From IMG/VR virus record IMGVR_UViG_3300046474_000370, positions 1 through 64,000 of that record: 64,000 nucleotides of DNA; one strand, 5' to 3'. The position numbers and the translations under genes are program-made. The notes under the pieces were generated by a model. That model saw nothing but the letters and a program-made list of their open reading frames with translations, was not told where the DNA came from and did not search any database. Source of the stretch: a virus. Below, piece after piece: positions 70 to 20,800 of the stretch; position 1 is the stretch's first letter; each line of letters begins with the position of its first letter.

Positions 70-2844
70 ATGTCCAAAATCGACGATCTCGCCAACCTGC
101 CGGGCCAGCCCGCCCCCGACAACAGCCCGCGTGCCGCCCGTGGCCCGGCGCTGCCGCCGCTGCGCAGCGGGGTCGAACCGCCGGTGCTGACCGATACCGT
201 GGGCGCGCGCGGGACCGCCTATGTCGATCCGCAGCCAGGACTGCCGCGCGCCGCCACCGCCGTCGGGCGCGGCAGTCCGGCACTGCCGCCGCTCGGTGGC
301 GGGGTGGAACCGCCGGTGCTGACCGACCCGCTGCAGCCGGGCGGGACGCAGTTCGTGGAGCCGCCGACCGGCGGTGCGATCGCCAGCGGCGCGCGCACGA
401 GCACCGGCGCGCCCGCGCGGTCTGGATTCCCGCTGCCGGCCACGCCGCCGGACCGTGGTGCGGCGCTGGGCGAGGCGGTTGCCGCGCGCGGCGGCAACCT
501 GCCGCCGGTGCCCGAGGGTGGCGCCCTGCGTGCGCAGATGGGGGTGCTGACGCCGAATAACACGGCGCCGGTGGCCGACACCGTGCGCGCCGGGGCGCCG
601 TCACCGATTGCGCAGGCGGCGCTGGGCGAGCTGCCGGCCGCGCCGAGCACCCCGAACATGAACGTCAAGTCGGTCGGCTCGCCGCCGGTGCCGCCAGCGG
701 CCCCGAATGCGCAGCCGAATCCGAACGTGGCCAGCGGCCGCACCGGCGGCGCGCAGCGCACCGGCGTGCTGTCGACGCAGGCCGAGGAATTCTTGAACAG
801 CGGCGCGGCCAGCAAGATCCCCGACCAGGTCGGCAACCCGAAGCTGAACCCGGTGCCGCCGCAAGGGGTCGCCGGCGCCGATGCGGGCGCGCGTCAGGCC
901 GGGCGCGGCGCGCCGGTGCCGAACATGCCCAAGGCGGTCGAGCCGGTGGCCAGCCCGACGACGGGCACGCCGGCGGCCGGGACCGGGGCGAATGCCACCA
1001 GCGCCGGCGCCAGCGCTGCCAGCAGCGGCGGCCGCTACGGCCGCATCGCCGAGGCCGCCAGCAAGTCGGTGCGCGCGGCGCTGCCGGAAACGCTGGGCGG
1101 CACGCCGCTGGCCAGCGGCAGCAAGCTGTTGAACGGCGTGGGCAGCGCCGCGCGCTGGGTCGGCCCGGCGCTCGAGGCGGGCCAGGTGGCTGGGGTGGCG
1201 CTGGACAAGAAAAGCAGCAAGGCCGATGTGGCCGAGCAGGTCGCGGTGGGCACCGGGCGCGGAGCGTCGGCGCTGGCCGGCGCCGGTCTCGGCGGCGCCG
1301 CCGGGGCCGCCCTCGGCCCGGTCGGCGGTGTGCTGGGCGCGGTGGCCGGGGGCGCGGCCGGGTATTGGGGCGGCGACGAGGCCATCAGGAAAATCCGGTC
1401 GGTCTTCGGGCTGGATGAACGCACCCCGTATGAACGGATGCAGGAACGCCAGGCGGCGCCGCAAAAGCCGGGGAAACCGGCGGCCGGCATCGCGCAGGCA
1501 GCGGGCGCGGCGGCATCAGCGCCACCGGGCGCGAGCGTGCCGACCGTGCCGACCAGCGCCGCGGGCGCCACGCCGGCCGGCGCGACCAACTACGATGCGC
1601 TGGCCGCCCGCTACGCCAGCCTGGAGCAGGAACAGCGGGCCAGCCCGATCGCGTTCACCGCGATGGGCGGCGTCGGCGGGCATGAAATCCACTACAAGAA
1701 CGGCGATGTGGTGCGGCTCGCGAACGGGGCGCCGCTGCCGGACGATGCGGCGCGCTTTTATGCCGTGTCCGACGAAATGAATGTGCTGCGCAGCGGCCGC
1801 ATGCCGGGGCAGGCCGCTGCGCCGCAGCAGGCGCCGCAGATGCAGCCGACGCACAGCGCGCAGGCGGCCCCGGCGACAGCGCAGCCGGGCGACTTCGTGC
1901 GCGCATACGGTGGCGCGGCGCAGCGGGTCGGGCAGGCGCTCGGGGTTGACCCGAACGTGGTGCTGGGCCAGTGGGGGCTCGAAACCGGCTGGGGCAAGTC
2001 GATCATCCCCGGCACCAACAACCTCGGCAATATCAAGGACTTCTCCGGGGCGGGCGTGGCGGCCACCGACAACCAGACCGGCAGCGTGGATAAATACATG
2101 CAGTTCGCCAGCCCGGACGCGTTCGCCGACCATTATGCCGACTTGATCCGGCGCAAGTTCCCCGGCGCGGTCGGGGCCGGGGCCGATGCCGCCAAGTTCG
2201 GGGCCGGGCTGAAAGCCGGCGGCTATGCACAGGACCCGCAGTATGCGGCCAAGATCCAGGCCGCGTTCAAACTCGCGGCCGGGCAGGCGGGCGGCCAGCA
2301 GCAGGGCGGCGCCGCGCCGGCCGCGTCGGCGGGCACGGCTCCAGACTTCATGCGCGCCAAGCCGGTCCACGTCATCGAGGGCGTCAACGACTTCATGGAA
2401 ATGCCGGCGGCGGGCGGTGGGTTCGCCAAGGTGCCGATGTCGATCTACCAAGCGGGCGCGGCGCAGGGCAACGCCGCCGGGGCGCTGCAGGACTATCTGA
2501 GCAACCAAAACGCCGGCATCGCCAACCGGCAAAATCCGGCCAAGGCCGAACTGGACAAGACGATCGCCAATGCCGCGATCGCGGCGCAGTCCCATGTCCA
2601 GGCGGCGCAGGTCGGCAAGAGCCGCTACCTGGTCGCCGGCGGCGGGACCGACCCGGCCACCGGCCTGAGCATGCCGCAAGCCGTGTTCGACACCGTGCAG
2701 GGCCGGCCTGCCGACATGGCGCCGAAGACCTGGCCGATGCCGCCGGACACCGCGATCGAGGAGCTGCGCAAGGCGCCGCAGACTGCGCCGGCGTTCGACG
2801 CCACCTTCGGCCCCGGTGCCGCGCAAAAAGCAATGGGAAGGTAA
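70..2844 (+). CDS. Internal virion/ejection protein with GH73 (FlgJ-like) glucosaminidase domain
   Basis: P/A/G-rich N-terminus and a Gly-rich hydrophobic segment. Motifs VLGQWGLETGWG..NNLGNIK and GGYAQDPQYAAKI (~1890-2260). GGAG RBS upstream. Confidence 0.8.
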   Translation: MSKIDDLANLPGQPAPDNSPRAARGPALPPLRSGVEPPVLTDTVGARGTAYVDPQPGLPRAATAVGRGSPALPPLGGGVEPPVLTDPLQPGGTQFVEPPTGGAIASGARTSTGAPARSGFPLPATPPDRGAALGEAVAARGGNLPPVPEGGALRAQMGVLTPNNTAPVADTVRAGAPSPIAQAALGELPAAPSTPNMNVKSVGSPPVPPAAPNAQPNPNVASGRTGGAQRTGVLSTQAEEFLNSGAASKIPDQVGNPKLNPVPPQGVAGADAGARQAGRGAPVPNMPKAVEPVASPTTGTPAAGTGANATSAGASAASSGGRYGRIAEAASKSVRAALPETLGGTPLASGSKLLNGVGSAARWVGPALEAGQVAGVALDKKSSKADVAEQVAVGTGRGASALAGAGLGGAAGAALGPVGGVLGAVAGGAAGYWGGDEAIRKIRSVFGLDERTPYERMQERQAAPQKPGKPAAGIAQAAGAAASAPPGASVPTVPTSAAGATPAGATNYDALAARYASLEQEQRASPIAFTAMGGVGGHEIHYKNGDVVRLANGAPLPDDAARFYAVSDEMNVLRSGRMPGQAAAPQQAPQMQPTHSAQAAPATAQPGDFVRAYGGAAQRVGQALGVDPNVVLGQWGLETGWGKSIIPGTNNLGNIKDFSGAGVAATDNQTGSVDKYMQFASPDAFADHYADLIRRKFPGAVGAGADAAKFGAGLKAGGYAQDPQYAAKIQAAFKLAAGQAGGQQQGGAAPAASAGTAPDFMRAKPVHVIEGVNDFMEMPAAGGGFAKVPMSIYQAGAAQGNAAGALQDYLSNQNAGIANRQNPAKAELDKTIANAAIAAQSHVQAAQVGKSRYLVAGGGTDPATGLSMPQAVFDTVQGRPADMAPKTWPMPPDTAIEELRKAPQTAPAFDATFGPGAAQKAMGR

Positions 2845-2847
2845 GCA

Positions 2848-5800
2848 ATGGCCACCAACGACGACCAAACCAGCAACCCGTACGCCAAGTACCTCGAACA
2901 ACCGGCGGCGGCGCCGGCCGTGCCGGACCCGGCGGCGCCCAATCCGTACGCCAAGTACGTCGACCCGGCGTACCGGGCGCCGCCGCGCAATTCGGCGATC
3001 GGGACCATCCGCGACCTGGCGCTGGACGCGGTCGGGGGCGCGCTGGACATCGGCAAGCAGGGCTACGGCCTGGCCAACCTGGCCACCGGCGGCACCCTCG
3101 ACCCGGCTTCGCGCGCGCTGACCGGCGCGGCCGGGCGCGGCGTGAGCGCGGTGGGCAACTTGGTGACCGGGCAGCAGCTGGACGGGCCGACCGATGAACA
3201 GGCGCCGAGCATCGCGCAGGGCATGCAGCGGCTCGACGAGGGACTGGCCGGGGCGCAGACGCCGTTCCGCCAGCAGGTGCAGCAACAGCGCGCGCAGGCG
3301 ATCGCGCAGGCTGACGGCCCGCTGGACGAGGCCAAGGCGGCGCTCAGCGAGAGCCTGGGCAGCCCGACCATGCTGGCCGGCGACATCGTGCGCAGCGGGG
3401 CCTCGATGTTGGCGCCGGCGGTCGGCGCCGAGGCGGTGACCGCGCGCTTCGGGCCGCAGGTGTTCGAGCGCGCCGCGCAGCAGGCGCTGGCCGGCGGGGC
3501 GACCCGTGAAGCGGCGGCGGCGGCGGGGCAGGCGGCGGTCGGGCGCCTGGGCGAGCGCGCGGTGATCGGCATCACCGGGGTCGGCCAGGTGGCCGGCGGC
3601 GACGACGTCGACACCATCAACAAGGTGCTCGACACCAGCGGCCAGGCGCTGGCGGCCAACCCGGAGTACCAGCAGCTGATTGCGTCCGGCCTGAGCGATG
3701 TGGCCGCGCGCGACGAGCTGGCGCGCCAGGCGGGGCTGGTCAATGCGGCGGTGGCGGCGCCGATCTCGATGGCGGCCTCGAAGCTGACCGGGGCCGGGCG
3801 CCAGCTGGCCGAGGTGGCCACCGGCCACTATGCCGGCAAGGGCGTGCTCGACCTGCTGAAAGGCGGCGCCAGGGAAGCCGCGCAGGAAGTGCTGGAGTCG
3901 GGCGGCGAACGGCTCGGCGCCAACCTCGGCGAGCAGCAGTACGGCGACCAGTCGACCCCGACCTGGAAGGGGGTGGCGGGCGACGCGACGCTGGGCGGGC
4001 TGGCCGGCTTCTTCATGGGGGCGGGCGAGCACGTTGCCGGCGGCGAGCATGGGACCCAGCACGCGGTGCCGGCGCAGGGCCAGCAGAACGCGCCCGCCAC
4101 GACACCGGCCGCGGCGCCGGTGGTGCCGCCGGGCGCCGGGCCGAATACGCGCGCGGCCGCGGCCGGGCTCGCGGCCGGCAGCGGGGCCCAGCTGTTCCCG
4201 TTCAACACTGCCGAGGCCGCGCAGAAGCGCGCCAACGCGCAAACCAATACGACCGGCGTGGCGCACGAGGTGGTCGATCACCCGAGCGTGGCCGGCAGCT
4301 TCGCCGTGATGCCGGTGGCACCGGAGGCGGAGGCTGCCGCCGGCAAGCAGCAGCCGGCTGCGACGGCCGCGCCAAGCGTCGCGCCCCACGACGACCTGGC
4401 CGACCTGTTCGGCGCCCCGGTGGCGGCCGCGCCGGTCACGCCGGTGGATGTGGCCGCGCACGCGGCGGCCAGCTCGCCGCAGAACGAGCTGGCGCCGCCG
4501 TCCAAGGGCCAGATCGAGGCCAACAACGCCCCGCTGGGGCACGCGAAGGTGGGCGGGCTGTCGGTCTCGTTCGAGAACCCGGCCGGCTCGGTGCGCCAGG
4601 ACAAGCTGAACGACCCGCCGCAGTGGGAAACCACGCTGCAGGACCACTACGGCTACTTCAAGGGGGTGGCCGCGCGCGCGCCGGACAAGGAGCATGTCGA
4701 TGTGTTCGTCAAGCCGGGCACGCCGAAGGATTACAGCGGGCCGGCGTTCGTGGTCGACCAGAACGACGAGGACGGCAATTTCGACGAGCCGAAGGTGATT
4801 CTGGGCGCCGCTTCGCTCGACGACGCGCGCGCGACCTACCTGCGCAACTACGATGCCGGGTTCGAGAACCGGATTCGTGGCATCACGCAGCTGTCGATGC
4901 CCGAGCTGAAGGCGCGCCTGAAGGACCCGAACGGGTTCATGCAGCCGCAGCCGGCATCCATCCCGCAAAGTCCCGCCGTTCCCGCAAACGGGATCGCGCG
5001 GGAAAGCGGCCAGCCGGTGGCCGCCGACGGCCAAGGGGCGCCGACGTTCACCACGGCCAAGGGCACGACCTACACGGTCAACCCGGACGGCGGCACCGTC
5101 AGCGGCAAGGCCGCCGGGCCGTCGCAGCGCACGTTCTACCTGACCCCGGAGGACATGCAGAAGCTGGCCACGCCGTTGGCGGGCAAGGGCGGCGCGCGCC
5201 TCGGGCTGAACTTCGGCGGGGCGAACGACGACACGATCCAGCTGCGCCAGACCAAGGGCGCGGACGCCGGCAAGATGGTGCGCGACACGCTGGTGCGGCC
5301 GGCGAAGGCGCCGGCGGTCGGGCTGCACCCGCTGGAAGTGTGGCGCGATGGCACGTTTGACATTGGCGACCAGATCACCCAAATGGGCGGTGCGGCGGTG
5401 CAGCAGGCGCCGGCCGCCACCGGGGCAAGCCAGCAGGAGGCCGCGCCGCAGGTGCCGCCAGCCGAGGCCCCGGCAGGCAGCGCAGCGCTGAGCCAGCCGG
5501 AGGATGATCAGTTCGACTTGTTCGGCGAGCAGGGCGCGGGGCAATCCGCAGGCACTGTCACGCCCGTAGCGGACGCGGAAGCGCCGGCCAAGGCGGGCAA
5601 GCCGCGCCTGGCCGAGAACGCCGATGACTTGTACCGCGCGATCAAGGAAAAGACCGCGGAGGGCGTGTACGTGCCTGGGCACGGCATCCTGAATCCGGTG
5701 GTGCGCGTGCTTGGGCTGCCCGATATGCGGGTGTCGAATCAGGGTGTCGAGGCGATCGAACATGGCGGCATGGGCGTGCGCGCTGCCACCAAGGCCGAGA

Positions 5801-8800
5801 TCGACGATCTGCACGAGGCGCTGGAATACGACCAGGCGCAGGTGCTGGCAATGAGCAAGTGGGGCGGCAACCGCAGCGATACGCGGTCGCAGCCTGTGAT
5901 GGAATTGCACAGCCCGTCCGGCAACGCCTTCCAGCAACGCACGAATACGGCGCTGCCGCTTGACCAGGCCGACACCGGCTTGTCGCTCAATGATAAGGCG
6001 CAGCAGGCGCGCGACCAGGCAGGCCCCGCCACGCCCGCAGAAAGCGTCCGTTATGGCCTCAAGAACATGACCAGCGAGCGGAACGGGGCGCGCATCCGTG
6101 ATGCGAAAAAGTGGGGGTTCACCGACGACACGGTCCCGCTCTACTACACCATTTCCGATACGTGGGCGGTGGATGTGTCGTTCCCGAACTCCGAGATTGC
6201 GTTCAGTCATGGCCGTACCGGCAAGACCGGCAGCGACCTCGACGGCGCCGCTGACGCGTTCTATGTGAACGTCGCGCAGGCCCCGAATGGCAAGTGGGCG
6301 TCCGGTTTCAATTATGGCCCCGGCTACTGGAAGGCGCCGTTCAGCAGCAAGCAGTACGACACGCGCGAGCAAGCGATCGAGGGGGCCACGGCGGGCCTGA
6401 AACAATGGGTCAGGAATCTGGACGGCGTGGCCGACCTGGTGGACAAGGTGGCGGCCGAGGCGCAACAGCAGCGCACGGGCGAGCCCGCGCAGCCGGGCAA
6501 GGCGCCGCTGCCAAACGCCACCGCGCCCGAGCATGTCCAGACCGGCGTGGATGACCGTGAGCTGGACGAGATCGTGGCCGAGTTCAAAAACGCTCAGGCC
6601 GACATGATGCAGGGCGAGCACCCGGTCACGAACGTGTTCCAGCCGCCCAAGAAGGGCGAGATTTACCGGCTCGAGAAGAAGGCCGGCGTGCGGACGGAAA
6701 ACAAGAACGGCAAGAAGGTCTACCACCGCGACGCCGGCTGGATGACGGTCGAGGAAGCCAAGGCGCAGATCGCGGAGTGGAAGGCGCACGCACAGGCGCA
6801 GGGCGAGGACGAGGACAGCCGTAGCGCGAACAGCCGGCGCATCGTGCTGTCGCTGTTCGACCTCACCGGCAAGTGGTCGCAGCCGTGGGAGGACGCCGGC
6901 TATCAGGTGTACCGCTTCGACATCCAAGACAGCGACACGTACGAAGACCCGGAAACCGGCGAGGAAAAGCTGGTTGGCGACGTCAACAACATGAGCGTCG
7001 AGTTCTTCAGCGACCTGTTCGGGGACTTCGACGGCAACGATGTCTACGCGGTGCTGGCCGCCTGCCCCTGCACCGACTTTGCCGGGTCGGGCGCCAAGCA
7101 CTTCGCCGCCAAGGACGCCGACGGCCGCACGGTCGCCAGCGTCAAGCTGGTGCATCAGACGCTGGCCCTGATCGAATACTACAAGCCGCAGATTTGGGCG
7201 CTTGAGAACCCGGTCGGGCGCATCGAGGAGCTGGGCGGGCTGCCGCCGTGGCGGCTGGCGTTCGATCCGTACCAGCTGGGCGACCCGTACACCAAGAAAA
7301 CCCTGCTGTGGGGCCGTTTCAACGGCGACCTGCCGATCGCGCCGGTGTTCCCGAGCGAAGGCACGAAGATGCACGCGAAGTACGGCGGCAAGAGCCAGGC
7401 CACCAAGAACGCCCGCAGCGCGACGCCGGAGGGCTTTTCCTACAGCTTCTTCATGGCGAACAACGCGGTCGACCATCCGGTGATGGCGATCGCGAACAAA
7501 TATGACCGCCTGGACAACCAACTGATCAAGAAAGCGGTCGAGGCCGGCATCGGCGAGGACCAGATCAACGACGCGGTCGAGGACCATTACTACATGGACC
7601 AGGACGACGACGCGGCCAACGCGGCGATCCGGGAGCTGCTTGCGGAGCACGGCGCTACCGTCTCCGCCGCAGAGCCGCAGTCGGAGACCGACACCGACCG
7701 GGCTGCGGCCCTGTTGCAGTCGCTGGCGCACCAGGCCAGCCGCGGCGAACCGGCCACCAGTGCGGCCCAAGTTGGTTTGCGGGTGGCGCTCCAAAGGGAC
7801 AGCTGGGCTGAAGGCAAGACGGTCATCCAGGGCGGCGAGGTCTGGAACAAGGGCAACCTGCGCGCCACGATCGCGCCGGGCCGCGACGGCGGCATGCCGA
7901 CGATCACGATCAAGCAGCGCAAGCTGACCGCGAAGGAGCAGGCCGCCGAGGAGCAACGCCAGCGCACCGAAGCAGATCGGCAAAAGCACCGCGCCGAGGC
8001 GCGCGCGTACTGGAAGGTCGGCATGGCGGCCGCGCTGCCGGGGTTTGCCGATGTCGAGGGCAGCGACCAGAAATACACGATGGATCTGCCCGGCGTGATC
8101 GAGTCGATCGACGGCGATACCGCCGATGTGCGCATCTACGCTGCACCGGAATACGGTTACACGCAGGAAGACTACCCGCTGCACGGAAAACTGGCGCGCA
8201 AGGTGCCGCTTACCGAGCTGAGCAAGTACGGGCACGGGCTGGAGCGGCTGCAGAAGATCGTTGACGAGGGCAAGCTGGCCACCGGCGATGCCGAAGTGGC
8301 CGCGAGCGTGCGTGCGCGCACCGCCAAGGTCAAGTACCCGAACCGCAACTTCGACCTGTTCTGGCAAACCCACCCGACCGCGCTGGAAGACGCGCGCGAT
8401 CACAAGTGGTGGGCCGAGGTCGCCTTTTTGAACATGCGGCGCGGCGACACGTTCACGGCCGGCGACAAGACCTACACGGTCGAGGCGATCAAGAAGATCA
8501 AGGACGGTGAGCACACCCGCAAGGGCATGACGCTCAGGGATGATGCTGGCGGCGAGCATACGTTCTGGCCGATGGCGACGGAATGGCATAGGCTCGTGCC
8601 GCAGCTGGCCGCCCAGCTCAAGGCCGAGGACGAGCTGCCGGACACGGCCCAGCGGCCGCTGCTCGACATCCTCAAGCGGGACCCGGCCGCCCATGTGGAC
8701 GAGCAGGGCCGCGTCTACCTGCGTGACACGGCGCCAGGGGAGGAACAGCCGCAGCCTGGCCTGAAGAAGATGCAGAAGGCCAAGGAGACCAAGGGCGCCA

Positions 8801-11800
8801 AGCCCGGCCTGAAACAGATGCAGGAGGCGAAAGCGGCCAAGGACGCGCCCGCACCCACGGTGCCGCAGGCGGCAGCACCGGCCAGCCTGTTCGCCGACAA
8901 CAAGATTTTCACGCAAGATGCGGTGGACAAGGCGCGCGCGCTGCTCAAGGCCAAGCTGGGCCAGCTCAATTCGGGGATCGACCCCGAAATGCTGCAGGCC
9001 GGTATCACGATCGCCGGTGCCTACATCGAGGCCGGGGTGCGCAGTTTCGCCAAGTTCGCGAAGGCGATGGTGTCCGACCTGGGCGAAGGCGTGCGGCCGT
9101 ACCTGCGCAGCTTCTTCGAGGGCGCGCGCCATTATCCGGGGCTCGATACCAAGGGCATGACCAAGCCGGACGACATCGACGCCGCCGGCCAGCTGGGCAT
9201 CGACGAGGGCGACACGGTCGAGTATATCGGCGGCAAGACGCACAACCTTGCGCGCGGCGACCGGCGCGAAGTGGCGTGGGTGAACCCGCACCAGATCGGC
9301 TTTGCCGATGGCGGCAGCGCAAGCTATGACAGCGTGCGGCGCGGCGATTGGAAGAAGGTCGAGGTGGCGCACGAGCTGGTGCTGCCGCAGCCGCCGACGG
9401 TGGACGAGCGCAAGAACGCGCAGGTGCTGGCCGACCTGGCCGCGAATGCCGGCAACCCGGTCGACATCGACGGCCGCTTCGCGCCGGGCGTGTACGGCAC
9501 CCCGGAGCAGCCGCTGCGCTTCGTGTCGGGGATGTCGCGGCCGGCCGACTTCACGCGCCTGTTCGGCAATGGCAAGAACGTCGGCATTTCGGTGCAGGAG
9601 CTGTCGAAGGTGGCGGTGCCGCTCGTCGCGAAGCAGTTGGCGGAGGCGCAGGGCGCCTATCTGTTCGTCGATTCCGGCGCGTTCTCGACCCACATGAGCA
9701 ATGTGCGCGAGGCCGAGGCCGCCGCAAACGACCAGCGCGACGCCGCCGCGCCGCGCAAACTCGATTTCGATGCGCTGATGGCGCGCTACGAGGACCTGTC
9801 GCGCGCGGTGAGCAAGGCGAGCGACGGCATGGCGATGGGGCGCATGTTCCTGGTGATGCCCGACATCGTGGGCGACCAGGCCGGCTCGCTGGCCCTGGTC
9901 AAGCAGTACGCCGACGAGATCAACGGCTACGGGCTGCAGGCGATCATCCCCTTGCAGGGCGGGGAGCTGACGCTGACCGAAGCGTACCAGCAGATGATGC
10001 GCAATCTGGGCATGCAGCCGGACGACCATGCGCCGATCATCGGCATCCCGACCCAGGAGCTGGCGGTCTCGAACGAGGAACTGACCGACCTGCTGCGCCA
10101 GTACGGCGATTCGATCAATGGCGTGCATATCCTCGGCGCCGCTTCCGACGCGCGCCTGCAGCCGCGGCTGGCCGCGATCGAGGCCTCCGGCTACGACGGC
10201 AACGTGTCGGCCGACGCCAACCGCATCCGTGCGCTGATTACGGAGGAGCGCCCGCGCAAGCAGGCGTTCAAGCACCTCAACCAGTCGAACATGGCCGATG
10301 GCAGCCCGCAGCCGCGCGTGGTGCGCGACGACCAGCGCCCGGAACCGGGTAAACCGCTCAGTGAGTTGCAAAAGCGCAAACGCAGCGCCGAGACGGTCGA
10401 GCCGAGCGAAAAGACGCCGCAGAAGTATGGTCCGAGCGGCCGTGCGGCCCTGGCCAAGATGGCGCAGCGGGCCAATCTGTCCACCGACCCGGCGCATGAC
10501 AGCGACTCGGCCGACCTGGTCCGCTTCTTCGAGAAATACTATGAAGCTGGCCGGGATGGCAGGCAAATGCCGAAGGCCGACCTCCACCCGGATGACGCAC
10601 GTACCGCTTACGCGGCTGGCCAGAAAGATGCCGCCGCGCCGGCCAAGCCGAAAAAGGGCTTCGGCGGCGCCACGTTGCGCCAGGACTTCGGCGTCGAGCA
10701 TATCGACGGCTACGCCGAGACGGCCGAGTTCCCGCGCGAAAACCTGCACTACGACACGCCGACCGGCGGGGTCAAGGAAGCGTTCATTAAGAACGCGCGC
10801 GCCTACCTGAAGGATGTGACCGGCATGCTGCTCGATCACGGCTTCACCAACGCCACCGGGCGCGACGGCAAGGCGCTCAAGCCGGTGCGCGTCAACGAGG
10901 CCGGCCCGGCGGTATCGGGCGAGGTGTCGCTGACGATGTACCACGAGGGCGCCGAACGCGGGATTTACATCGACATCAGCGGCACCGTGGGCGGCATGAT
11001 GATCCCGGCCACGCGCTCGGGGGTGGCGGTGATGATGCGGGTGACCAAGAAGGACGACCCGTATAGCGGTGGCCAGAATATCTTTGCCGATACCAAACTG
11101 ACGGCGGCCGAGCTGGCCGACAAGGTGCGCGCTGCGGTGTTCGCCGCCAGTCCGAACCGGGATAAACTGGACGCAAGCGCTGCGCCGAACGACGACAAAG
11201 CGAAGGATGACAATGGTACTGGACCTGCAATTTCTGACCTGGCTGCGCCGGGAGTCAGCCGCACTGGCGCAGGAGTGGCCGCCGGGGGGCAAGCTGGAAC
11301 GCGACCTGCTGGCCCATTGGGCGCGCCACCGGCCGCAGATGCTGGCGCAGCTGGAAGCGGTGAAGGCGGCCGCCCCGCTGGCGCACATCCTGATCGACCG
11401 CATGATGAAGGCGACAACGGCCAACCTGCAAGCGGGGATGGCGCCGACGGACGCAACGGAACAAGCGGAACGGGACTGGTTGATGCTGGAACCGGAGTCG
11501 GAGGACCCGCCGTCGGGCCCGCCCGTGCCAATTACCACATTGGCGACCCCGAACAGCTGATCGGCGGCACGCCGAAGGTCCGGTTCGCCAACAACCGGCG
11601 CGCGATCGAGGCGTACCGCTCGATCACCGAGGAGGGCCGGGCGCCGGTCAAGGCCGACCTGGACGCGATGGCGGCCTACATCGGCTGGGGCTCGTTCGGC
11701 CAGGAGCTGTTCCAGGGTAATTGGAACACCCCGCGCCCGAAAGCCGGCTGGGAGCAGGAGGACGCGTGGCTGCGCGGCCACCTCGGCCAGCAGGAATGGG

Positions 11801-14800
11801 AGAGCGCGCAGCGCTCGATCACCAACGCCCACTACACGGACCCGATCACGGTCACGACCATGTGGAACATGGTGCGCGCGCTCGGCTTTACCGGCGGCCG
11901 CGTGCTCGAGCCGGCAATGGGCATCGGTAACTTCTTCGCCATGATGCCGCTCGACCTGGCCGAGAAAAGCCAGCTGACCGGCATCGAGATGGACGCGCTG
12001 AGCGGCGGCATGGCCAAGGAGCTGTACCCGAACGCGAACATCCAGATCAAGCCGTACCAGGACAGCAAGACCGCGGACGGCTTCTATGACCTGGTGATCG
12101 GCAACTGGCCGTTCGATAAGGATGGCCCGAGCGACCGCCGGTACATGAAGCTGAACCCGTCGCTGCACGACTTCTTCTTCCTCAAGGCGCTCGACCAGAC
12201 CCGCGCCGGCGGGCTGGTGGTGGGCATCACCAGTGCCGGCACGATGGACAAGAAGGGCCGTGCCACGCGCATGGAACTGGCCAAGAAGGGCGAGCTGGTG
12301 GCTGCGTTCCGGCTGCCGTCGGGCGCGTTCGAGAAGTACGCCGGCACGGCCGTGGTGACCGACATTATCGTGCTGCGCAAGCGCGAGACGCCCGGCAGCG
12401 GCCTCGAGCCGTGGGTCGAGCTGGGCGAGACCAAGGTCCCGGCTGGCGAGAAGATCGAGGTCAACAGCTATTACCTGCAGCACCCGGACCATGTCCTGGG
12501 CACGCTGAATTTCGGGCATGGCAGCACCTATGGCCGCCCGGCGATGATCGTCGAGCGCCCGGCCGACCTGATGGAACGGCTGGCGCAGCTGCCGGGCAAG
12601 ATGCCGGCCGAGACCTACCAGCCGCCGGCCAGCCGCAAGCAGGTCAGCTACCTGAGCAACAACACCGACGACCGCGAGGGCAGCGTGACGCTGGCCAAGG
12701 GCAAGCTGTACGTGGTGCGCGGGGAACGCCTGGTGCCGCTGGCCGACGAGGTCAAGTACGAGCTGAAGGACAAGGCCAAGACCGCGCAGCGCGAGGCCCA
12801 GCTGCGCCAGCTGATCGCGATGCGCACGGCATACGGCGCGCTGGTGGTGGCCGAGCGCGCGGCCGACCCCAAGACCGAGGCGCTGCGCAAGGATTTGCTG
12901 GGCAAGTACCAGGCCTTTACCAAGGCCTACGGCACGCTGGAGGAGTCGGACGGGCTGCGCATCCTGCGCGGCGTGAAGGACCCGTACTACTTCGCCCTGG
13001 CCTCGCTGGAGATCAACGGCAAGCCGGCGCGCATTCTGCGCGAGGCGACGCTGCGCGGGCGCAAGAAGATGGCCAACCCGAGCGTGCGCGAGGCGTTCGT
13101 GATGGCGCGCAACGAGAGCATGGACGTGAACCTGGCCACCATCGCCAAGCTGAGCGGCAAGAGCGAGGCGGCGGTCGCGGCGGAACTGGAGCAGGCCGAC
13201 GCGATCTTCAAGACCCCGGCCGGCAATTACGAGGTGGCCGATATTTACCTGTCGGGCAATGTGCGGCGCAAGCTGCGCGAGGCCCAGGATGCGCAGGCCA
13301 ACGCGCCGGCCGGCCAGGCGACTCCCGATTTCGCGCGCAACATCGCGGCGCTGGAACGGGTGCTGCCGAAGACGGTTCCGTACTTCAAGATCGAGGCCAA
13401 GCTGGGCGCGCCGTGGGTCAAGGCCGAGCATTACCACGACTATGTCGCCCGCCTGCTGGGCCTGACGCGCGACGCGGACAAGGCCGGCGTCGATGTGGCG
13501 ATGGTCAATGGCTCGTGGAAGGTCAAGTTCACCGACAAGTCGCTGAACAACCGGCCGGAAGCGGTGGCGCAGTGGGGCACCGGCTACCGGGGGGCGTCGC
13601 TGGACAAGATGCTGACGGCGGCGATGAACAACCGCAGCATCACGATCAAGACCCCGGACGCGGACGGCAACCTGCAAGTGGACGAGGCGGCCACCAAGGA
13701 GGTCAGCGAAAAGCTGGTCAAGCTGCGCGAGGAATTCGGCAACTGGATCTGGAAGGATGTCGAGCGCCGGGTCTGGCTGGAGCAGAACTACAACGAAGTG
13801 ATGAACGCGATCGCGACCCCGCGCTTCGACGGTTCGTTCCTGGAGTTCAACGGCATGACCCTGCGCCGCGGCGAGGACCCGTTCTCGCTGCGCCAGCACC
13901 AGGTCAATGCGGTGTGGCAGGGGCTGGTCAACGGGCGCGGCCTCTACGCGCACGAGGTCGGCACCGGCAAGACCTACACGATGGCGGGCCTGGCGGTCGA
14001 GTCGCGCCGCTACGGGCTGGCCAAGAAGCCGCTGATCTTCGCCCACAACGCCAACAGCGCGACCGTGGCCAAGGAGTTCAACGACATGTACCCGGCGGCA
14101 CGGGTGCTGTACCTGGACAACCTGACGCCCGAGGACATCGACGTGCGCATGCGCCAGATCGCCAACGACGATTGGGACGCGGTGATCGTGCCGCACTCGC
14201 TGATCGGGCGCTTCGCGCTGACCGAAAAGACGCTGATGGAGATCGCCGCCGAGGACATCGCGGCGATGGAGCAGGAGGCGCTGGACGCGGCCAGCGACGA
14301 CGGCGCAACGCTGACGATGGCCATGATGAACGACGAGGATGCGATGAAGAAGGTGCGCAGCGCGACCGCCAAGGAGCTGGTCAAGGCGCGCAACAAGATC
14401 ATCAAGAGCATCAAGGACATGGCGCTGCGCTCGTCGAAAGAGAGTGCGGTGTCGTTCGAGGACCTCGGGATCGACATGGTGATCGTCGACGAGGCGCACG
14501 AGTTCAAGAAGCCGCCGGTCGCCACCAAGATGAAGATGCGCGGCCTGAACACCGGCACCTCGAACATGTCGATCGCGCTGCGCTTCTTGACCGACTACGT
14601 CAAGCGCGAGAACAACGGGCGCGGGGTCCACCTGTTCACCGGCACCCCGATCACCAATACCCTGACCGAGCTGTACAACATGATGCGCTACGTCATGGAT
14701 GACGTGATGAAGCGCGACGGCATCAAGGATTGGGACAGCTGGTTCAACACCTTCGCCGATTCCAACACCGACGTCGAGCTGACCGCGGCCGGCGAGTACG

Positions 14801-17800
14801 AGGCGGTCACGCGGCTGGCCAGCTTCGTCAATACGGCCGAGCTGCGCCGGATCGCCGGCGAGTTCATGGACATCGTGTTTGCCGACGACATGCCGGAGTT
14901 CGCGCCACGCCCGACGTCGACCGGCAAGACCATGAGCGACACGCTGAGCGACGCCGAGCGCGACGAGCTGATCAACGGGCGCAGCGAGCAGCCGGTGGGC
15001 CGGCCGTACAAGAAGATCGTGGTCGATACCGCCCCGCTGGGCAACGAGCAAAGCAGAATGCTGGACCACTTCAAGGCGCTGGCCAGGCAGTTCAAGCAGG
15101 CCACCAAGAAGGAGCGCCGCGAAATGATGCTCAGCGGCCACCCGGCCAGCCCGCTGCTGGTCGAGACCGGGGCCGCGAACGCCGGCATGGACCCGCGCCT
15201 GGTGGACATGGATGCCGCCGACGAGCCGAACAGCAAGGTCAACCGGCTGGTGCGCAACGTCGCCGCGCTGTACCAGCGCGACGCGCGGGCGACCCAGGTG
15301 GTGTTTCTGGAGCGCGGGTTTGTCGATGAGGCGACCCGCACCAAGACCAACCCGGACGGCACCAAGACCGTGACCAAGGTCAAGAAATTCAACCTGGTCA
15401 AGGACATGGTCGAGAAGCTGGTCGCGGCCGGCGTCAAGCCGGGCGAGATCGCCGTGGTGGACGGTTCGACCAGCAAGGAAAAGCGCAAGCAGATCGCCGA
15501 CCTGATGAACAAGTCGAAGATCCGGGTCGTGATCGGCAACACCAAGACGCTCGGGGTTGGCGTGAACATGCAGGAAAACCTGCGCGCGATGCACCACATG
15601 GACGCGCCCTGGATGCCGGGCGAGCTGGAGCAGCGCAACGGGCGCGGCTGGCGCCAGGGCAACAAGTGGAACACCGTGCTCGAGTACCGCTACATCACCG
15701 AGCGGCTGGACGGACGGCGCTGGCAGGTGCTGGCGGTCAAGGACCGTTTCATCAAGCTGTTCCTGAAGGCCGACGAGAACACCCGCATCATCGACGGTGA
15801 TGCGGTCGACCTGGAGGAGGGCGAGGGCGGCGGTGACCTGGCGGCCACGCTGTCGGAGGCGGCAGGCGACCCGCGCGTGCTGGTGCGCGAAAAGCTCAAG
15901 GCCGATATCGAGAAGCTGGAGAACCGCGAACGCCAGCACACCTATGCGCTGAGCGATGCGGCCGACATGGCGCGGAAGCTGGCGACGGAGACCGAGCGGC
16001 TGGCACAGCAACTGCCGCTGGTGCAGGCCGACGCGGCGCAGTTCGAGGCGGCACGCGCGACCTTCAGCATGACCATTGGCGGCCAGCAGTACACCGAGCG
16101 TCCCGCCGCCGACGCGGCGATCGCCGCGGTCGAGGCCCAGCTGAACGGCGATAAGGTGACGCAGCGCCAGATCGGCAGCATCCACGGCTTCACGCTGACG
16201 CTGCAGCGCTCCCTCGTCGGCTACTACGTGAAACTGCGCGGCAAGCAGACGTTCGAGGCCGGGGTGGCCAGCGTGGCGTCGATCGAGGCGGCGCTGCGCA
16301 AGCTGGCCAAGACGGCCGCCGAGACCCAGCAGAAGATCGCGGACAACAAGGCCAGCTACGTGCGCATGGTCGAGATGCAGAAGGAGCCGTTCGGGCAGGC
16401 CGCGCTGCTGGAGAAGAAGCGCAAGATGCTGGCCGACCTGATCGCCGATCTGGCGCGCAACCCGGAGCCGGCACCGGGCTGGCTGCGCCACGGGGCGCCG
16501 GCCAATACCGCGATCTACGTCGGCGGCGAGCAGCGCGTGGTGGAAGGGCACAAGGCGAACAAGGACGGCTATTTCCTGGTCACCGAGGCCGGCGATGTGC
16601 CGTACCTCGACGCCACCGACGCCAGTGGCATGCCGTTGTTTGAGCCGGTCAACGGCGAGGAGCGCGGGCTGACGCTGAGCGCCCCGCCGAACATCCTGGA
16701 TGTACGCCGCCAGCGGCGCGCCGAGGACCGGGAGCGCAGGGGAACGGACCCCGACCCGGATGTGGCCAAGCTGTCGCGCGGCAGCGCGGGCCGGGGCATG
16801 GCGCACGGTGTCGTGCGGCAGCTGGCCGACGCCATCGCCAGCCGCTGGCACGAGGCGCCGCCGGTGACGGTGGTGCAGCGCGTGGCCGATCTGCCGTTCG
16901 CGGCGCCGGCCGATACCCGTGGCGCCTACGCGCAGGGCCGCGTGTGGCTGGTGGGCGACAACCTGCACACGCCCGACGAGGTGCAGTTCGTGATGGCGCA
17001 CGAGGTGCTGGGGCACCGCGGGCTGGCCGCGATCCTGGACAAGCAGGCGCTGACCCAGGAGCTGAACCGGCTGCGCCTGATCAACCCGGAACTGGCCAAG
17101 GCGGCGCGTGCGCAGGCGACCAAGTACGGCTACGACCTGACGCTGGCGACCGAGGAGGCGCTGGCCGACATGGCCGGCGAGGGCAAGGCCATCAACGGCT
17201 GGCAGAAGTTCGTCAACCTGGTGCAGCGGGCGCTGCGCGCGGTCGGGCTGGACCGGGCGGCGGACTGGATCGAGGGCAGGACGGCGGCCGAGACCATGAG
17301 CTTGCTGCGCCGGGCCCGCGAGGCGATCGAGGGCGGCCAGCAGCCGCACCTGTTCGGGCAGGCGCAGGCGGCCGCGTTCTCGGATGGCGCACCGAGCCGC
17401 TGGTATTCGGCGCTGGCGCGCAAGGTCGAGGCGCTGCCGATGAAGGCGGCACCGGCGGCGCAGTGGGTCGGCACGCTCAACGGGCTGGCCAAGCAGGGCG
17501 TCAGCACGGAGGAAATCGAATGGTCGGGCGTGACCGACTGGCTGCGCATGCAGGATGGCAAGGTCAGCAAGGCGCAGCTGCTCGATTACCTGGCGCAGAA
17601 CGGGGTGCGGGTCGAGGAAGTGATGCACGCGGAGCCGGACGACACGGCCGACCGCGAGACCTTCGTCGACGGCGAGGTGGAGCAGGACCGCGCCGCGCAC
17701 CAGCGCGAGGTCGACGAGATGATTGCCGACCAGTTGGGCGATGCGGCCGGCGGCCATTACGTGGCCGAGACCGAGGACGAGGACGGCAACACGGTGTGGG

Positions 17801-20800
17801 CGCTGCGGCAGGACGCATCCGACGAGGACCTGGAGCTGTTCGACGACGAGGGCAAGGCGCAGGCGGCGGCCGACCTGGCCAACGAGCGCCATGACGCCGA
17901 GCGCGAGACGGACCTGCGCAACAACGCCACCGCGTTCGACGAGGACGCCGCGCGCCACCGGGCCGAGCGCGAGTGGGACCAGCACCACGCGTCGGACGAC
18001 ACCCGCAGCTACCAGCAATACACGCTGCCGGGTGGCGAGCATTACACCGAGCTGTTGCTGACGCTGCCGCAGCGCGAGCCGTCATTCGCGCTGGACGACT
18101 ACATCGGCGAGTTGAGCGACAAATACGGCTGGGTGATCGACGGCGTGCTGCACACGCCCGGATGGAGCGAGGCCGACCTGACGCAGGAGGAGCTGGCCAA
18201 GCTGCGCAGGTTGCAGCAAGATGACCTCGAGGAGCGGGCGCAGCGGGCCAACGCTACCTATCAATCGCCCCATTGGAGAGCGACGCGTAACGTGCTGGCC
18301 CATATCCGCGTCAACGAGCGGCGCGACGTTGACGGCAAGCGCGTGCTATTTGTCGAGGAATTGCAGAGTGATTGGGCGGCCGACAGCCGCCGCCATGAGG
18401 TGGCAATGCGGAAGCTGCGCACCGCCGTGATGGAGGCGGCCACGGCGCGCGGCGCCGACCTGGCAGCGGTGGCGCAGGCATTCGATTTCATCAGCGAGGA
18501 GCCGTTGGAAACGACGGAGCGCCCGACGACCTGGGCCTGGGAGTTGCTGCGCACGGCCACTGGCGACACCGTCGACCTGAACGCGATCCACGCCATCCGC
18601 GACGACCTGCCGAAGCCGGCCGCAGCGCCGTTCACCGGCCAGACCGGGGCCTGGGTCGCACTGGCGATCAAGCGGGTCATCGCGTACGCCGCCGAGAATG
18701 GGTTTGACACGGTGGCGTTCGTCAACGGCACGCAAAGCACCGAGCGCTTTTCGCTGCGGCAGCGTGTCGAGGCGATCCGCTATGTGCGGAAGGATGGCGG
18801 CAAGTATGACGTGTGGGCGGCCGACGAGAGCGGCGCGGCGTTGAACCGCACGGTCGACCAGCAGGGGCTGACGCCAACCGAAGTCGAGAAGTTCGTCGGG
18901 GTCGAACTGGCCGCCAAGATTTTCAAGGGCGAGGGGGTCGAGCAGGACGGTGACATGGTGCTGTCCGGCCTCGACCTGGAGCTGGGCGGCGAGGGCATGA
19001 AGGCCTTCTACGACCAGATCGTGCCGAAAGTCGCGAATGACGTGCTGAGGAAGCTGGGCGGCGGCAAGATCGGCTCTGTCTTCTTGCCGGATATTTATCG
19101 CGAGCCCGAAATGACCGGGCTCGACGCGGACGGCGAGGGGGTTTTCGACGATGGCCACAGCGGCGAGCAGCCCGGCTTCGACATCACCCCCGAGCTGCGC
19201 GCCACCGCGCTGGCCGGCCTGCCGCTGTTCGCGCGTGACGCCAATTGGGGCCGCTCGGTGCGCGACCCGAACTACCGCCAGGTGGTCAAGCGCACCCCCG
19301 AGCTGCAGGCCGCGGCCCAGCAGCTGAAGGACGGCAAGCTGAGCAAGGCCGAGTACGCGCGCCTGGTCGAACAGTACAAGCCGGCCAGCGAGTATGCGTT
19401 CGTGCCGCCGCCGGCGGGCGAGCAGGACATGCGCGAAGCGCTCAGCTCGGACAAGGTGGCGCGCATCGGGGCGCCGCTGGCCACGCTCGAGGCCGGGCAC
19501 CCGGTCGGGCTGCGGCTGGATATCCCGGCCTACGCCAACCACGGCGTGTGGGTGGTCGCGGTCCACGAGCAGCTGGCCAGTTTCGCGGCCGGCAAGTCGA
19601 TCGGCTATGACAGCATGGCGGCCGTCACCAACGCGACCTTCGGGGTGGTGCAGCGCGCGGCGCTGGATATCGCGGCCGGCAAGGCGAAATCGACCATCGC
19701 CGTGATCAAGGGCAGCTGGCGCCCGATCTCGCGCGAGAAGGCGATCGAGGCGGCGCAGCGCGCGCTGGCCCTGCCCGAGTGGCGCCAGGTCGGCATGCAC
19801 CCGGAGCGCCATGCGTATTTCTTCGACCGCGGCACCATGCGGCCGGTGGTGGCGGCCGATGCGGTGATCCAGGTGGGGCCGCTGGTGCTGGCGCGGAATG
19901 TCAAGTACGGCAGCATGGATGATGTGCTGTTTTCGCGCGGAGATACCGCGTCGGTGGACCATGTCGCGGCCGGCATCACCCGCCGTCAGTTCCTCGCCGC
20001 CGCCGCGCTGGCGGCCACCGTCGGCAGGGCGCGCGCTTCCGCCGCGCTTGGCAAAGCCCAGGCCCTGCCGGGCGACATCCTCACCCAGCCGTTGCCGGCG
20101 TCGGTCGCGCAAACCTTGCGCGGCACGGGGAGCGGCATGGCCAATCCTGACGGTGCTCAGGCGGTCGACGCCGCGCTGGGGCAGATCGCCGGCCACGGCC
20201 CTGTCGAGCTGCGCGCGCTGGCGGCGCAGATCCGTTCGCTGACCCCGGCCACGGATACGATGCTGACGGTGGACGACAGCACGGCTGCCGACGCACACGG
20301 GGAGGTGGCGCTGGACGGGCCGGTCGCGCACTTGAAACTGTACACCGCTGGCGGGCGCACCGGGTTGACCTACGAAACGTTCCTGCATGAGGCGCTGCAC
20401 CTGGCGGTGGCGGCGCGCTACCAGACCATCGCGGCCGCCACGCAACGCGGCGGCAGTGACGCACTCCAGATGCCAGCGCCGGCGGCGGCCGCCGCGATGG
20501 CGCAGCTCACCGACCTGTGGCAGGAGTTTGGGCGCGCGGTCAAGTCGCGCCCTGCGCCGACGGACAAGGCCACCAGGGTCTCGGTGGTCGAAGCCGTCTT
20601 GCATCAGGACGAGTTTTTCGTGCGCGCGCTGACCGACCACCGGCTGCAAGCGTACATGGCAGGCATGGAGTATGAAGGCAAGAGCCTGCTGCAACGGTTC
20701 AAGGATTGGGTTGCCGGCTTGTTCGTGAAGGATGGCGTGCGACCGTCGTGGCTGGACGCGGCGCTGCTGGCGTCGGGTGAACTGGCCGGGGCGATGCCCG

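What the first reader, a model, noticed from the sequence alone, without database searches (positions are those of the whole stretch)
9510..10230. tRNA-guanine transglycosylase (TGT/DpdA)-like domain embedded in a virion-type DarB polyprotein
Seen: ordered motifs LFVDSGAFS, VMPDIVGD, IIPLQGG, VHILGA and VSADA. Known: TGT-fold enzymes including phage DpdA have DSG(A/G)F, a substrate-binding Asp, an HxLG loop and a late nucleophilic Asp, and DpdA swaps guanine for 7-deazaguanines in DNA. No queC/D/E or folE genes are in this window. Inference: a co-injected base-exchange enzyme that modifies incoming DNA using host precursors, or acts on tRNA. It would sit beside two methyltransferases in the same chain. 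I do not know of a characterised example of this fusion.
Basis: partly seen in the sequence, partly recalled or inferred. Interest (0 to 1): 0.82.

Follow-up and report, generated by a model that had tools for sequence, protein, structure and literature searches.

The report
DpdA-like base-swapping domain in phage giant protein
A 7,099-residue multi-enzyme virion protein of an uncultured 101-kb phage contains a small, uncatalogued relative of the enzymes that swap guanine in DNA for 7-deazaguanine. It probably helps shield incoming DNA from host restriction, but no activity has been tested.

Summary
All five motifs lie in frame at 9661-10218 inside one ORF (2848-24147, 7,099 aa). They belong to a sharply bounded ~245-aa module (aa 2222-2467). 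That module recurs in 488 protein clusters: giant polyvalent proteins of phages and plasmids, and stand-alone 240-400-aa proteins.

No Pfam, NCBIfam or PADLOC model covers the module, and validated phage DpdAs also hit no Pfam family. There is no Zn site. No preQ0-synthesis genes occur in the whole phage or around 58 related viral loci.

Partner domains point to DNA: C5 and N6 methylases, Mom, and a YaaA/DpdC-related DUF6884. An unexplained recurrent fusion to a pyrophosphatase domain leaves room for different chemistry.

This scan noted the same module type in at least four other genomes; those are unchecked AI notes. Verdict: a new DpdA-like subfamily deployed in a new way, function untested.

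The parts
2848..24147 (+). 7,099-aa polyvalent protein ORF that carries the domain
   Evidence: ORF list and translation. Pfam finds InPase, SNF2/Helicase_C and ART-PolyVal in this frame. The 5,508-aa antisense ORF 1516-18042 has no support and is an artefact of about 68% GC.
9511..10248 (+). DpdA-like minimal TIM-barrel domain (aa about 2222-2467)
   Evidence: Homology borders. AF2 pLDDT 94.9 with eight beta/alpha units. hhalign to phage DpdA gives 96.2-96.7%, E 5.5e-10 to 2.2e-9.
9670..9672 (+). D2275 in FVDSGAF, at the end of strand 3; candidate general acid/base (DpdA D95, 9g D72)
   Evidence: 134/134 conserved. Aligned to DSGAF of phage DpdA. Role taken from PMC10164549.
9862..9864 (+). 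D2339 in PDxVGDQ, after strand 4; candidate base-recognising Asp (DpdA D130, 9g D114)
   Evidence: 134/134 conserved. Aligned to LDxIGD.
9955..9957 (+). Q2370 in PLQGG, after strand 5; it sits where phage DpdA has its PxxHxG His. I recall bacterial TGT having a Gln at the corresponding base-binding spot (not tested here).
   Evidence: Q in 120, H in 6, P in 8 of 134. Aligned region.
10126..10137 (+). HILG (H2427...G2430), strand 7; equals the conserved His196 motif HGFG of 9g DpdA and VHLLG of bacterial DpdA
   Evidence: H and G are 134/134 conserved. Alignments. His196 is noted in PMC6884629.
10213..10215 (+). D2456 in SADAN, at the end of strand 8; candidate nucleophile (DpdA D256, 9g D215)
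   Evidence: 132/134 conserved. Aligned to ySvDSS. The phage DpdA profile aligns that motif to TSIDST of 7ui4.
4507..4920 (+). InPase (polyvalent-type inorganic pyrophosphatase) domain in the same chain
   Evidence: PF18823, E 1.6e-33.
6847..7209 (+). C5 cytosine DNA methylase-like stretch
   Evidence: PF00145, E 5.9e-4, below the cut-off. Shared with 16 of 149 relatives.
11500..15700 (+). DarB-like adenine methylase plus SNF2 helicase module
   Evidence: tblastn to annotated DarB-like antirestriction proteins, 99% coverage, E down to 0. SNF2-rel_dom and Helicase_C hits.
20959..21417 (+). ART-PolyVal ADP-ribosyltransferase domain
   Evidence: PF18760, E 4.8e-18.
70..2844 (+). Upstream 924-aa protein with a glucosaminidase domain; it links the structural operon to the giant gene
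   Evidence: PF01832, E 6.9e-18. Structural genes lie on the same strand at genome 85-101 kb.

Best explanation
Residues about 2222-2467 of the giant protein are a stripped-down member of the tRNA-guanine transglycosylase / DpdA superfamily. They form a bare (beta/alpha)8 barrel without the Zn subdomain and belong to a new subfamily closest to phage DpdA1.

The likely mechanism is the DpdA double displacement. D2456 attacks C1' of a flipped-out deoxyguanosine and expels guanine. D2275 acts as general acid/base. D2339 and Q2370 read the Watson-Crick edge. A free 7-deazaguanine then resolves the covalent intermediate. The most likely base is preQ0 or preQ1 from the host's queuosine pathway, since the phage encodes no synthesis genes.

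The domain sits in a DarB-type polyvalent protein encoded at the end of the virion structural operon. It is therefore probably packaged and delivered with the DNA, alongside methylases, and marks the element's DNA against restriction.

Shown here: homology, fold, conservation of the catalytic positions, and genomic and domain context. Inferred: the substrate (DNA), the incoming base, packaging and ejection, and timing.
For: Sequence homology:
- Profile-profile homology to phage DpdA: hhalign 96.2% local and 96.7% global, P 2.2e-9 and 5.5e-10.
- An independent run with the tool's own alignments gave 96.3%, E 1.8e-9, 142 columns from DSGAF to S.DAN/SvDSS.
- Reversed and 15 column-shuffled controls scored 18 or less, against 70.5 for the real comparison.
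- HMM-to-sequence hits run both ways. A direct tblastn hit links 9g DpdA to family member L070.

Structure:
- AF2 barrel with pLDDT 94.9. The conserved residues sit at the C-terminal ends of strands 3, 4, 5, 7 and 8.
- Catalytic positions are invariant in 134 segments.

Context pointing to DNA:
- Fusions with N6 methylases, Mom and C5 methylase.
- Five architectures have an adjacent DUF6884. DUF6884 is related to YaaA/PF03883 (PMC11701544), and PF03883 is the family of DpdC (PMC12839542).
- A plasmid copy lies near the relaxase gene.

Precedent:
- 9g DpdA alone inserts dPreQ0 into plasmid DNA using E. coli's own preQ0. Also, 76 of 182 viruses encode DpdA without synthesis genes (PMC6884629).

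Virion context.
Against: - No family model recognises the domain: Pfam TGT and DpdA, NCBIfam DpdA, and PADLOC all give nothing.
- There are no cysteines, so no Zn site.
- No FolE, QueD, QueE or QueC was found in the 101-kb genome or within 10 kb of 58 related viral loci. That search used tblastn with 9g proteins only, so sensitivity is limited.
- No ParB/DpdB-like ATPase partner was detected by Pfam in the chain. Bacterial DpdA needs DpdB plus ATP (PMC10164549).
- The barrel lies within 100 residues of an InPase domain in 10 proteins, in both orders, including two-domain proteins. Simple base exchange neither makes nor uses pyrophosphate.
- Packaging and ejection are inferred from gene order only.
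Confidence: 0.5

Rival explanations
1. The domain is a nucleic-acid glycosylase or base-exchange enzyme with a different chemistry or base. It may excise guanine or a modified base, or it may use or produce a nucleotide or pyrophosphate-linked intermediate together with the often-adjacent InPase domain.
For: InPase lies within 100 aa of the barrel in 10 of 25 InPase-bearing relatives, in both orders. The two-domain proteins P0025, P0073 and P0077 contain nothing else that Pfam recognises. There is no genomic link to 7-deazaguanine synthesis. The strand-6 loop (GIPS) and the DANR motif differ from DpdA's GG and DSSSW. DUF6884 members bind abasic lesions (PMC11701544).
Against: The full Asp/Asp/(Gln or His)/Asp set of guanine-type transglycosylases is kept. 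InPase is a common domain of phage polyvalent proteins in any case (PMC5512222). No TGT-fold enzyme using pyrophosphate is known to me.
Confidence: 0.2
2. The domain is an RNA-directed transglycosylase. It alters or damages host tRNA (position 34 or another guanine) to reprogramme or shut off host translation.
Against: The sequence is closest to DNA-acting phage DpdA, not to TGT: PF01702 gives no hit. It lacks the Zn subdomain and the insertions that hold the anticodon arm (PMC10164549). Its fusion partners are DNA-modifying domains.
Confidence: 0.1
3. The domain is a Cap10- or TIM-B-like enzyme acting on a protein or a soluble nucleobase or nucleotide. It might add or remove a deazaguanine on a host immune protein as a counter-defence.
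Against: The family profile against P4 beta protein gives no signal (0.5%), while phage DpdA1 single sequences give 83-93%. The domain does not match PF14350. Its partners are DNA enzymes.
Confidence: 0.07
4. The domain is an unrelated TIM-barrel enzyme (for example aldolase- or epimerase-like) whose motifs resemble TGT motifs by convergence.
For: Foldseek's top hit is a D-psicose epimerase. Class II aldolases tie with TGTs in Z. No curated model hits the domain.
Against: hhalign P is about 1e-9 with clean controls. Five motifs are collinear with DpdA on the same strands. Sequence identity to TGT-type hits is 13-14%, against 8-10% for the aldolases.
Confidence: 0.05

Closest known systems
Phage DpdA, DpdA1 type (Enterobacteria phage 9g gp03, Pseudomonas phage Iggy DpdA)
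   Same: TIM barrel of about 250-310 aa without a conserved Cys cluster. Collinear motifs DSGAFS, (L/P)DxxGD, P..(H/Q).G, HxxG and S.D(S/A). hhalign 96%, E about 2e-9. Like validated DpdA1 proteins, it hits no Pfam family.
   Different: About 20% identity. DANRxR replaces DSSSW, GIPS replaces GG in the strand-6 loop, and Gln replaces His after strand 5. It is embedded in giant polyvalent proteins or carried on plasmids rather than being a replication-module gene. It is never next to FolE/QueCDE or ParB in the loci examined.
Bacterial DpdA of the Dpd restriction-modification system (Salmonella Montevideo, PDB 7UI4)
   Different: It lacks insertions Ins1, Ins2 and Ins8 and the CxCx2Cx22H zinc site. 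No DpdB-like ATPase was detected. NF041059 and PF23859 do not match.
tRNA-guanine transglycosylases (bacterial TGT, archaeosine TGT 1IQ8)
   Different: No PF01702 match, no Zn subdomain, no tRNA-binding insertions or C-terminal domains.
Polyvalent proteins with a DarB methylase-helicase dyad (phage P1 DarB; Iyer et al. 2017, PMC5512222)
   Same: The carrier protein has InPase, DarB-like methylase plus SNF2 helicase, and ART-PolyVal, and it lies in a late/virion operon.
   Different: That survey lists no TGT/DpdA-type domain. None of the Pfam LPD models matches this module.
TIM-B (PF14350, phage P4 beta protein)
   Same: Recently placed in the same deazaguanine-transglycosylase barrel superfamily (bioRxiv 10.64898/2026.10.19.760177). 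Flagged as a look-alike by the language-model search.
   Different: No detectable profile similarity (0.5%). TIM-B is an antitoxin-like regulator in defence operons, not a polyvalent-protein module.

Membership tests
TGT/DpdA superfamily (deazaguanine transglycosylase TIM barrels) | (beta/alpha)8 barrel most similar to TGT/DpdA structures | tested here: inconclusive
TGT/DpdA superfamily (deazaguanine transglycosylase TIM barrels) | Statistically supported sequence-profile homology to members | tested here: met
   hhalign to 13 phage DpdAs gives 96.2-96.7%, E 5.5e-10 to 2.2e-9. Controls score 18 or less.
TGT/DpdA superfamily (deazaguanine transglycosylase TIM barrels) | Three invariant active-site Asp (general acid/base after strand 3, base-binding after strand 4, nucleophile after strand 8) | tested here: met
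   D2275 and D2339 are 134/134 conserved; D2456 is 132/134. They align to D72, D114 and D215 of 9g DpdA. Spatial superposition could not be computed.
TGT / bacterial DpdA | Structural Zn site (CxCx2C...H) and Ins8 subdomain | tested here: not met
   The domain has no Cys, and the median is 0 Cys in 134 segments. The model ends with two short helices after strand 8. The phage DpdAs aligned here also lack a conserved Cys cluster.
TGT (PF01702), DpdA (PF23859, NF041059), DpdA4/DUF6610 (PF20314) | Match to the curated family model above its cut-off | tested here: not met
   No hit at E up to 10. One of 45 relatives hits DUF6610 at E 0.0026. Validated 9g and Iggy DpdA also match no Pfam family, so this says little about the phage clade.
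Phage DpdA | Conserved His196 motif (HGFG) | tested here: met
   H2427 and G2430 are 134/134 conserved and align to H196/G199. The feature is named in PMC6884629.
Phage DpdA | Genomic linkage to preQ0/G+ synthesis genes or a ParB-like partner | tested here: not met
   None in the 101-kb genome or within 10 kb of 58 viral loci. This is not required: 76 of 182 viruses carry DpdA alone (PMC6884629).
Phage DpdA | Guanine / 7-deazaguanine exchange in DNA | not testable with these tools
   Needs an LC-MS/MS or radiochemical exchange assay.
Polyvalent proteins (Iyer et al. 2017) | Many effector domains in one chain, encoded with virion or transfer genes | tested here: met
   InPase, C5-MTase-like, DpdA-like, DarB MTase-SNF2 and ART-PolyVal in one 7,099-aa ORF. 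Head and connector genes lie upstream on the same strand.
TIM-B (PF14350) | Profile similarity to P4 beta protein | tested here: not met
   hhalign 0.5%, P 0.12. P4 beta itself hits PF14350 at 4e-56; the domain does not.

The most novel reading that the evidence does not exclude
A delivered DNA-rewriting enzyme. It would be a minimal DpdA-like barrel, carried into the cell inside a phage's ejected polyvalent protein, or expressed from the early-entering region of plasmids. It would replace guanines of the incoming DNA with a host-supplied 7-deazaguanine on arrival. Where DUF6884 is attached, that domain would convert the base further, as DpdC does. The result would mimic or pre-empt host marks, including Dpd-type self marks.

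The recurrent pyrophosphatase partner could mean a donor or energy coupling not seen in any known transglycosylase.
Probability: 0.35. Interest if true: 0.8.

Novelty: new variant of a known kind. Interest (0 to 1): 0.62.

Why it matters
All characterised DNA 7-deazaguanine insertases are stand-alone genes that act after replication in the producing cell, or that belong to a bacterial restriction-modification system.

A widespread DpdA-like module would add base exchange to the known at-entry anti-restriction tools (DarB-type methylation, ADP-ribosylation). The family spans 488 clusters at 50% identity and was found in 0 of 400 other sampled Pseudomonadota genomes. It sits in virion polyvalent proteins and on conjugative or mega-plasmids.

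It also gives a compact, Zn-free, roughly 245-residue transglycosylase scaffold. It defines a family that current databases leave unannotated. The InPase and DUF6884 pairings give concrete biochemical hypotheses. Stand-alone copies on Pseudomonas and Cupriavidus plasmids make the idea testable in culture.

Tried and rejected
- Pfam, NCBIfam and PADLOC scans of the domain and of 45 relatives gave no family. PHROGs gave only phrog_15826 (unknown function, E 2.6e-4) and a 25-residue touch on phrog_887 (E 0.3).
- PDB sequence searches with the single sequence and with the family profile gave nothing meaningful.
- Foldseek against PDB and BFVD: TGT and DpdA entries were interleaved with epimerases. 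One true homologue appeared in an uncultured phage.
- tblastn of the domain against 50,697 GenBank phages gave no match.
- A phylogenetic-profile test against the queuosine pathway was not feasible. The genome-contig scan found only 5 loci, of which 4 of 5 genomes have QueC. Only the centre genome among 401 Pseudomonadota had the family.
- The weak QueC hit in the phage turned out to be a PAPS-reductase-family protein.
- TIM-B/P4 beta kinship was rejected.
- The DUF6884-like domain is absent from this particular polyprotein.
- Only one HExxH motif is present (aa 5847). I did not establish a processing peptidase.
- No complex prediction was run, because no binding claim is made.
Full report
**Observation**

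The window holds one 7,099-aa ORF on the + strand (2848-24147). LFVDSGAFS is at 9661-9687, VMPDIVGD at 9853-9876, IIPLQGG at 9943-9963, VHILGA at 10123-10140 and VSADA at 10204-10218. A 5,508-aa antisense ORF over the same DNA reflects the roughly 68% GC content. All Pfam hits lie in the + frame.

**A discrete, widespread module**

An exhaustive HMMER search of 1.84 billion cluster representatives with aa 2213-2482 found 488 clusters at E <= 1e-3 and 166 at E <= 1e-10. Matches always covered query residues about 10-255.

Among the 149 best hits:
- 42 are 3,000 aa or longer.
- 57 are shorter than 450 aa and stand alone, with a median of 87 extra C-terminal residues.

BLAST of the whole polyprotein against these hits shows sharp borders at aa about 2200-2480. 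The rest of the chain is shared only sporadically: InPase in 25, C5-MTase-like in 16, ART in 13, DarB MTase in 9.

Occurrence by collection:
- 58 IMG/VR viral contigs.
- 43 plasmids, mainly Pseudomonas megaplasmids and Cupriavidus plasmids.
- None of 50,697 GenBank phage records.
- Only the centre genome among 401 sampled Pseudomonadota genomes.

It is therefore essentially a module of mobile elements.

**Conservation**

In 134 aligned segments D2275, D2339, P2401, H2427 and G2430 are invariant. D2456 is kept in 132 of 134. Q2370 is Q in 120, H in 6 and P in 8. The domain has no cysteine.

**Fold**

AlphaFold2 with a 45-sequence alignment gives pLDDT 94.9 and pTM 0.91, with eight strand-helix units. 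The conserved residues sit at the C-terminal ends of strands 3, 4, 5, 6, 7 and 8, the catalytic face of a TIM barrel.

Structure search is only suggestive. Foldseek lists Z. mobilis TGT entries (E about 3e-5, TM about 0.47) interleaved with sugar epimerases. The exhaustive VIA-align search gives:

Fold alone does not identify the family.

**Sequence homology to DpdA**

No curated model matches the domain: Pfam including PF01702 and PF23859, NCBIfam including NF041059, and PADLOC. This is weak evidence, because the experimentally validated 9g and Iggy DpdAs also match no Pfam family. 9g DpdA hits NF041059 only at E 0.014.

I assembled 13 phage DpdAs (9g, Iggy, BcepGomr, RHph_X3_2, Cracklewink, Sonali, Rosebush, Finch, phiSM and four 9g relatives). 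I compared profiles in several ways:
- hhalign of the 134-segment family alignment against them: 96.2% local (P 2.2e-9, score 70.5) and 96.7% global (P 5.5e-10).
- The tool's own run on separately built alignments: 96.3%, E 1.8e-9, over 142 columns from DSGAF to S.DAN/SvDSS.
- The reversed DpdA alignment and 15 column-shuffled versions: score 18 or less.
- Single DpdA1 sequences against the family profile: 83-93%. P4 beta protein (TIM-B, PF14350): 0.5%.
- HMM-to-sequence searches are weakly positive in both directions.

The aligned pairs are:

| This domain | 9g DpdA |
|---|---|
| D2275 | D72 (DSGAF) |
| D2339 | D114 (LDxIGD) |
| P..Q.G | P..H.G |
| H2427/G2430 | H196/G199 |
| D2456 | D215 |

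The phage DpdA profile in turn aligns its HGFG...SvDSS stretch with VHLLGIA...TSIDST of the DpdA crystal structure. In bacterial DpdA, D95 is the general acid/base, D130 and H181 read the base, and D256 is the nucleophile. Alanine substitution of D95 or D256 abolishes guanine exchange (PMC10164549). The occasional His at the Q2370 position matches the His that phage DpdA carries in the aligned motif.

**Differences from known members**

- The Zn site and the large Ins8 subdomain of bacterial DpdA and TGT are absent. The phage DpdAs I aligned also lack a conserved Cys cluster.
- DANRxR replaces DSSSW. GIPS replaces the GG loop. phiSM DpdA3 has a similar GISPAND.
- Identity to DpdA1 is about 20%.

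This is a separate clade beside the five named subfamilies: bDpdA and DpdA1-4 (PMC10516641).

**Genomic context**

The window is bases 1-64000 of a 101,110-bp IMG/VR virus record that CheckV rates as complete.

Genome positions 85-101 kb encode, on the + strand, a major head protein, a head-closure protein and several virion structural proteins. The first window gene is a 924-aa protein with a glucosaminidase domain, and the giant gene follows. The chain also carries InPase, a DarB-like methylase-SNF2 module and ART-PolyVal. These match the phage-type polyvalent proteins of Iyer et al. 2017. That paper lists no TGT/DpdA domain. Packaging and ejection are inferred from this context only.

**Where would the base come from?**

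The whole phage has no TGT, FolE or QueD. The only QueC-like hit is a PAPS-reductase-family ORF next to an N6/N4 methylase at about 82 kb. tblastn with the 9g FolE, QueD, QueE and Gat-QueC proteins found nothing within 10 kb of 58 related viral loci or in three plasmid loci. That search has limited sensitivity.

This does not refute a DpdA role. 9g DpdA expressed alone in E. coli inserts dPreQ0 using the host pool. The largest group of DpdA-encoding viruses (76 of 182) has no synthesis genes (PMC6884629).

**Partner domains**

Twenty mid-sized relatives were scanned with Pfam:
- Five have InPase as the only other recognised domain.
- Two have N6 methylase (Eco57I type).
- One has Mom plus ART.

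Five proteins carry a DUF6884-like domain next to the barrel, with its CxxxK and (L/I)SAxxG motifs. One of them, P0004, has a barrel 72% identical to this one. DUF6884 is distantly related to YaaA/PF03883 and is predicted to flip bases in DNA (PMC11701544). PF03883 is the family of DpdC, which converts dPreQ0 to dADG in DNA (PMC12839542; PMC10164549). A barrel-plus-DUF6884 fusion therefore parallels DpdA plus DpdC. In Cupriavidus plasmid pRK1-3 that fusion lies about 3.5 kb from the relaxase gene, next to a SprT-like gene. These partners point to DNA as the substrate.

**An unexplained point**

InPase lies within 100 residues of the barrel in 10 of 25 InPase-bearing relatives, in both orders. 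Base exchange neither consumes nor releases pyrophosphate. This pairing keeps a different chemistry in play.

**Verdict**

I put about 90% on the domain being a genuine member of the deazaguanine-transglycosylase barrel superfamily, closest to phage DpdA. Its carrier is a virion-operon polyvalent protein. I put about 50% on the full statement: a delivered or phage-borne DNA guanine/7-deazaguanine exchanger using host precursors. The rivals are listed separately.

I found no description of this module in the searched literature.

Earlier notes of this scan report the same kind of module in at least four other genomes, with the same reading. They are unchecked AI notes and are not independent evidence. 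This report adds the controls, the strand-by-strand residue mapping, the InPase and DUF6884 pairings, the plasmid distribution and the rarity in cellular genomes.

Noticed in passing
relatives P0025, P0073, P0077, P0075, P0070, P0076, P0064, P0018, P0061 (protein ids); window 4507-4920 for this phage's own InPase: The DpdA-like barrel and the polyvalent-type pyrophosphatase domain (PF18823) are direct neighbours (gap under 100 aa) in 10 proteins, in both orders. These include proteins made of just these two domains. No known transglycosylase chemistry explains this.
   Followed up: partly
P0094, P0092, P0004, P0039, P0109; L002:5785-7533: A DUF6884-like domain (CxxxK, LSAxxG; distant relative of YaaA/DpdC) sits next to the barrel in five architectures, including a phage polyprotein whose barrel is 72% identical to this one. 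This polyprotein lacks it.
   Followed up: partly
genome 82283-83248 (L013:1486-2451), outside the window: A PAPS-reductase-family (PP-loop) protein lies directly after an N6/N4 DNA methylase gene (L013:9-1226). A PAPS-reductase-family gene also lies 3 kb from the stand-alone barrel on a Pseudomonas megaplasmid (L003:9788-11998).
   Followed up: no
window 70-2844 (+): A 924-aa protein with a glucosaminidase domain (PF01832) lies immediately upstream of the giant gene. It is probably a virion-associated cell-wall hydrolase.
   Followed up: no
window 1516-18042 (-): A 5,508-aa open frame runs antisense to the giant gene. It has no domain support and is most likely a by-product of high GC content.
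   Followed up: partly
L004:3007-3960, L005:292-1230 and other phage DpdA loci: Experimentally validated phage DpdAs (9g, Iggy) and DpdA2/DpdA3 examples match no Pfam family at E <= 1, including PF01702 and PF23859. Database silence is therefore uninformative for this superfamily.
   Followed up: yes
L008-L012: In actinophages and Cellulophaga phage phiSM, the DpdA gene is flanked by a ParB-like gene and often by QueC. No such partner is seen next to the polyvalent-protein barrel.
   Followed up: no
window 20386-20400: This is the only HExxH motif in the 7,099-aa chain (aa 5847, FLHEALHLAV). It may be the processing metallopeptidase expected in polyvalent proteins, but this was not verified.
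   Followed up: no
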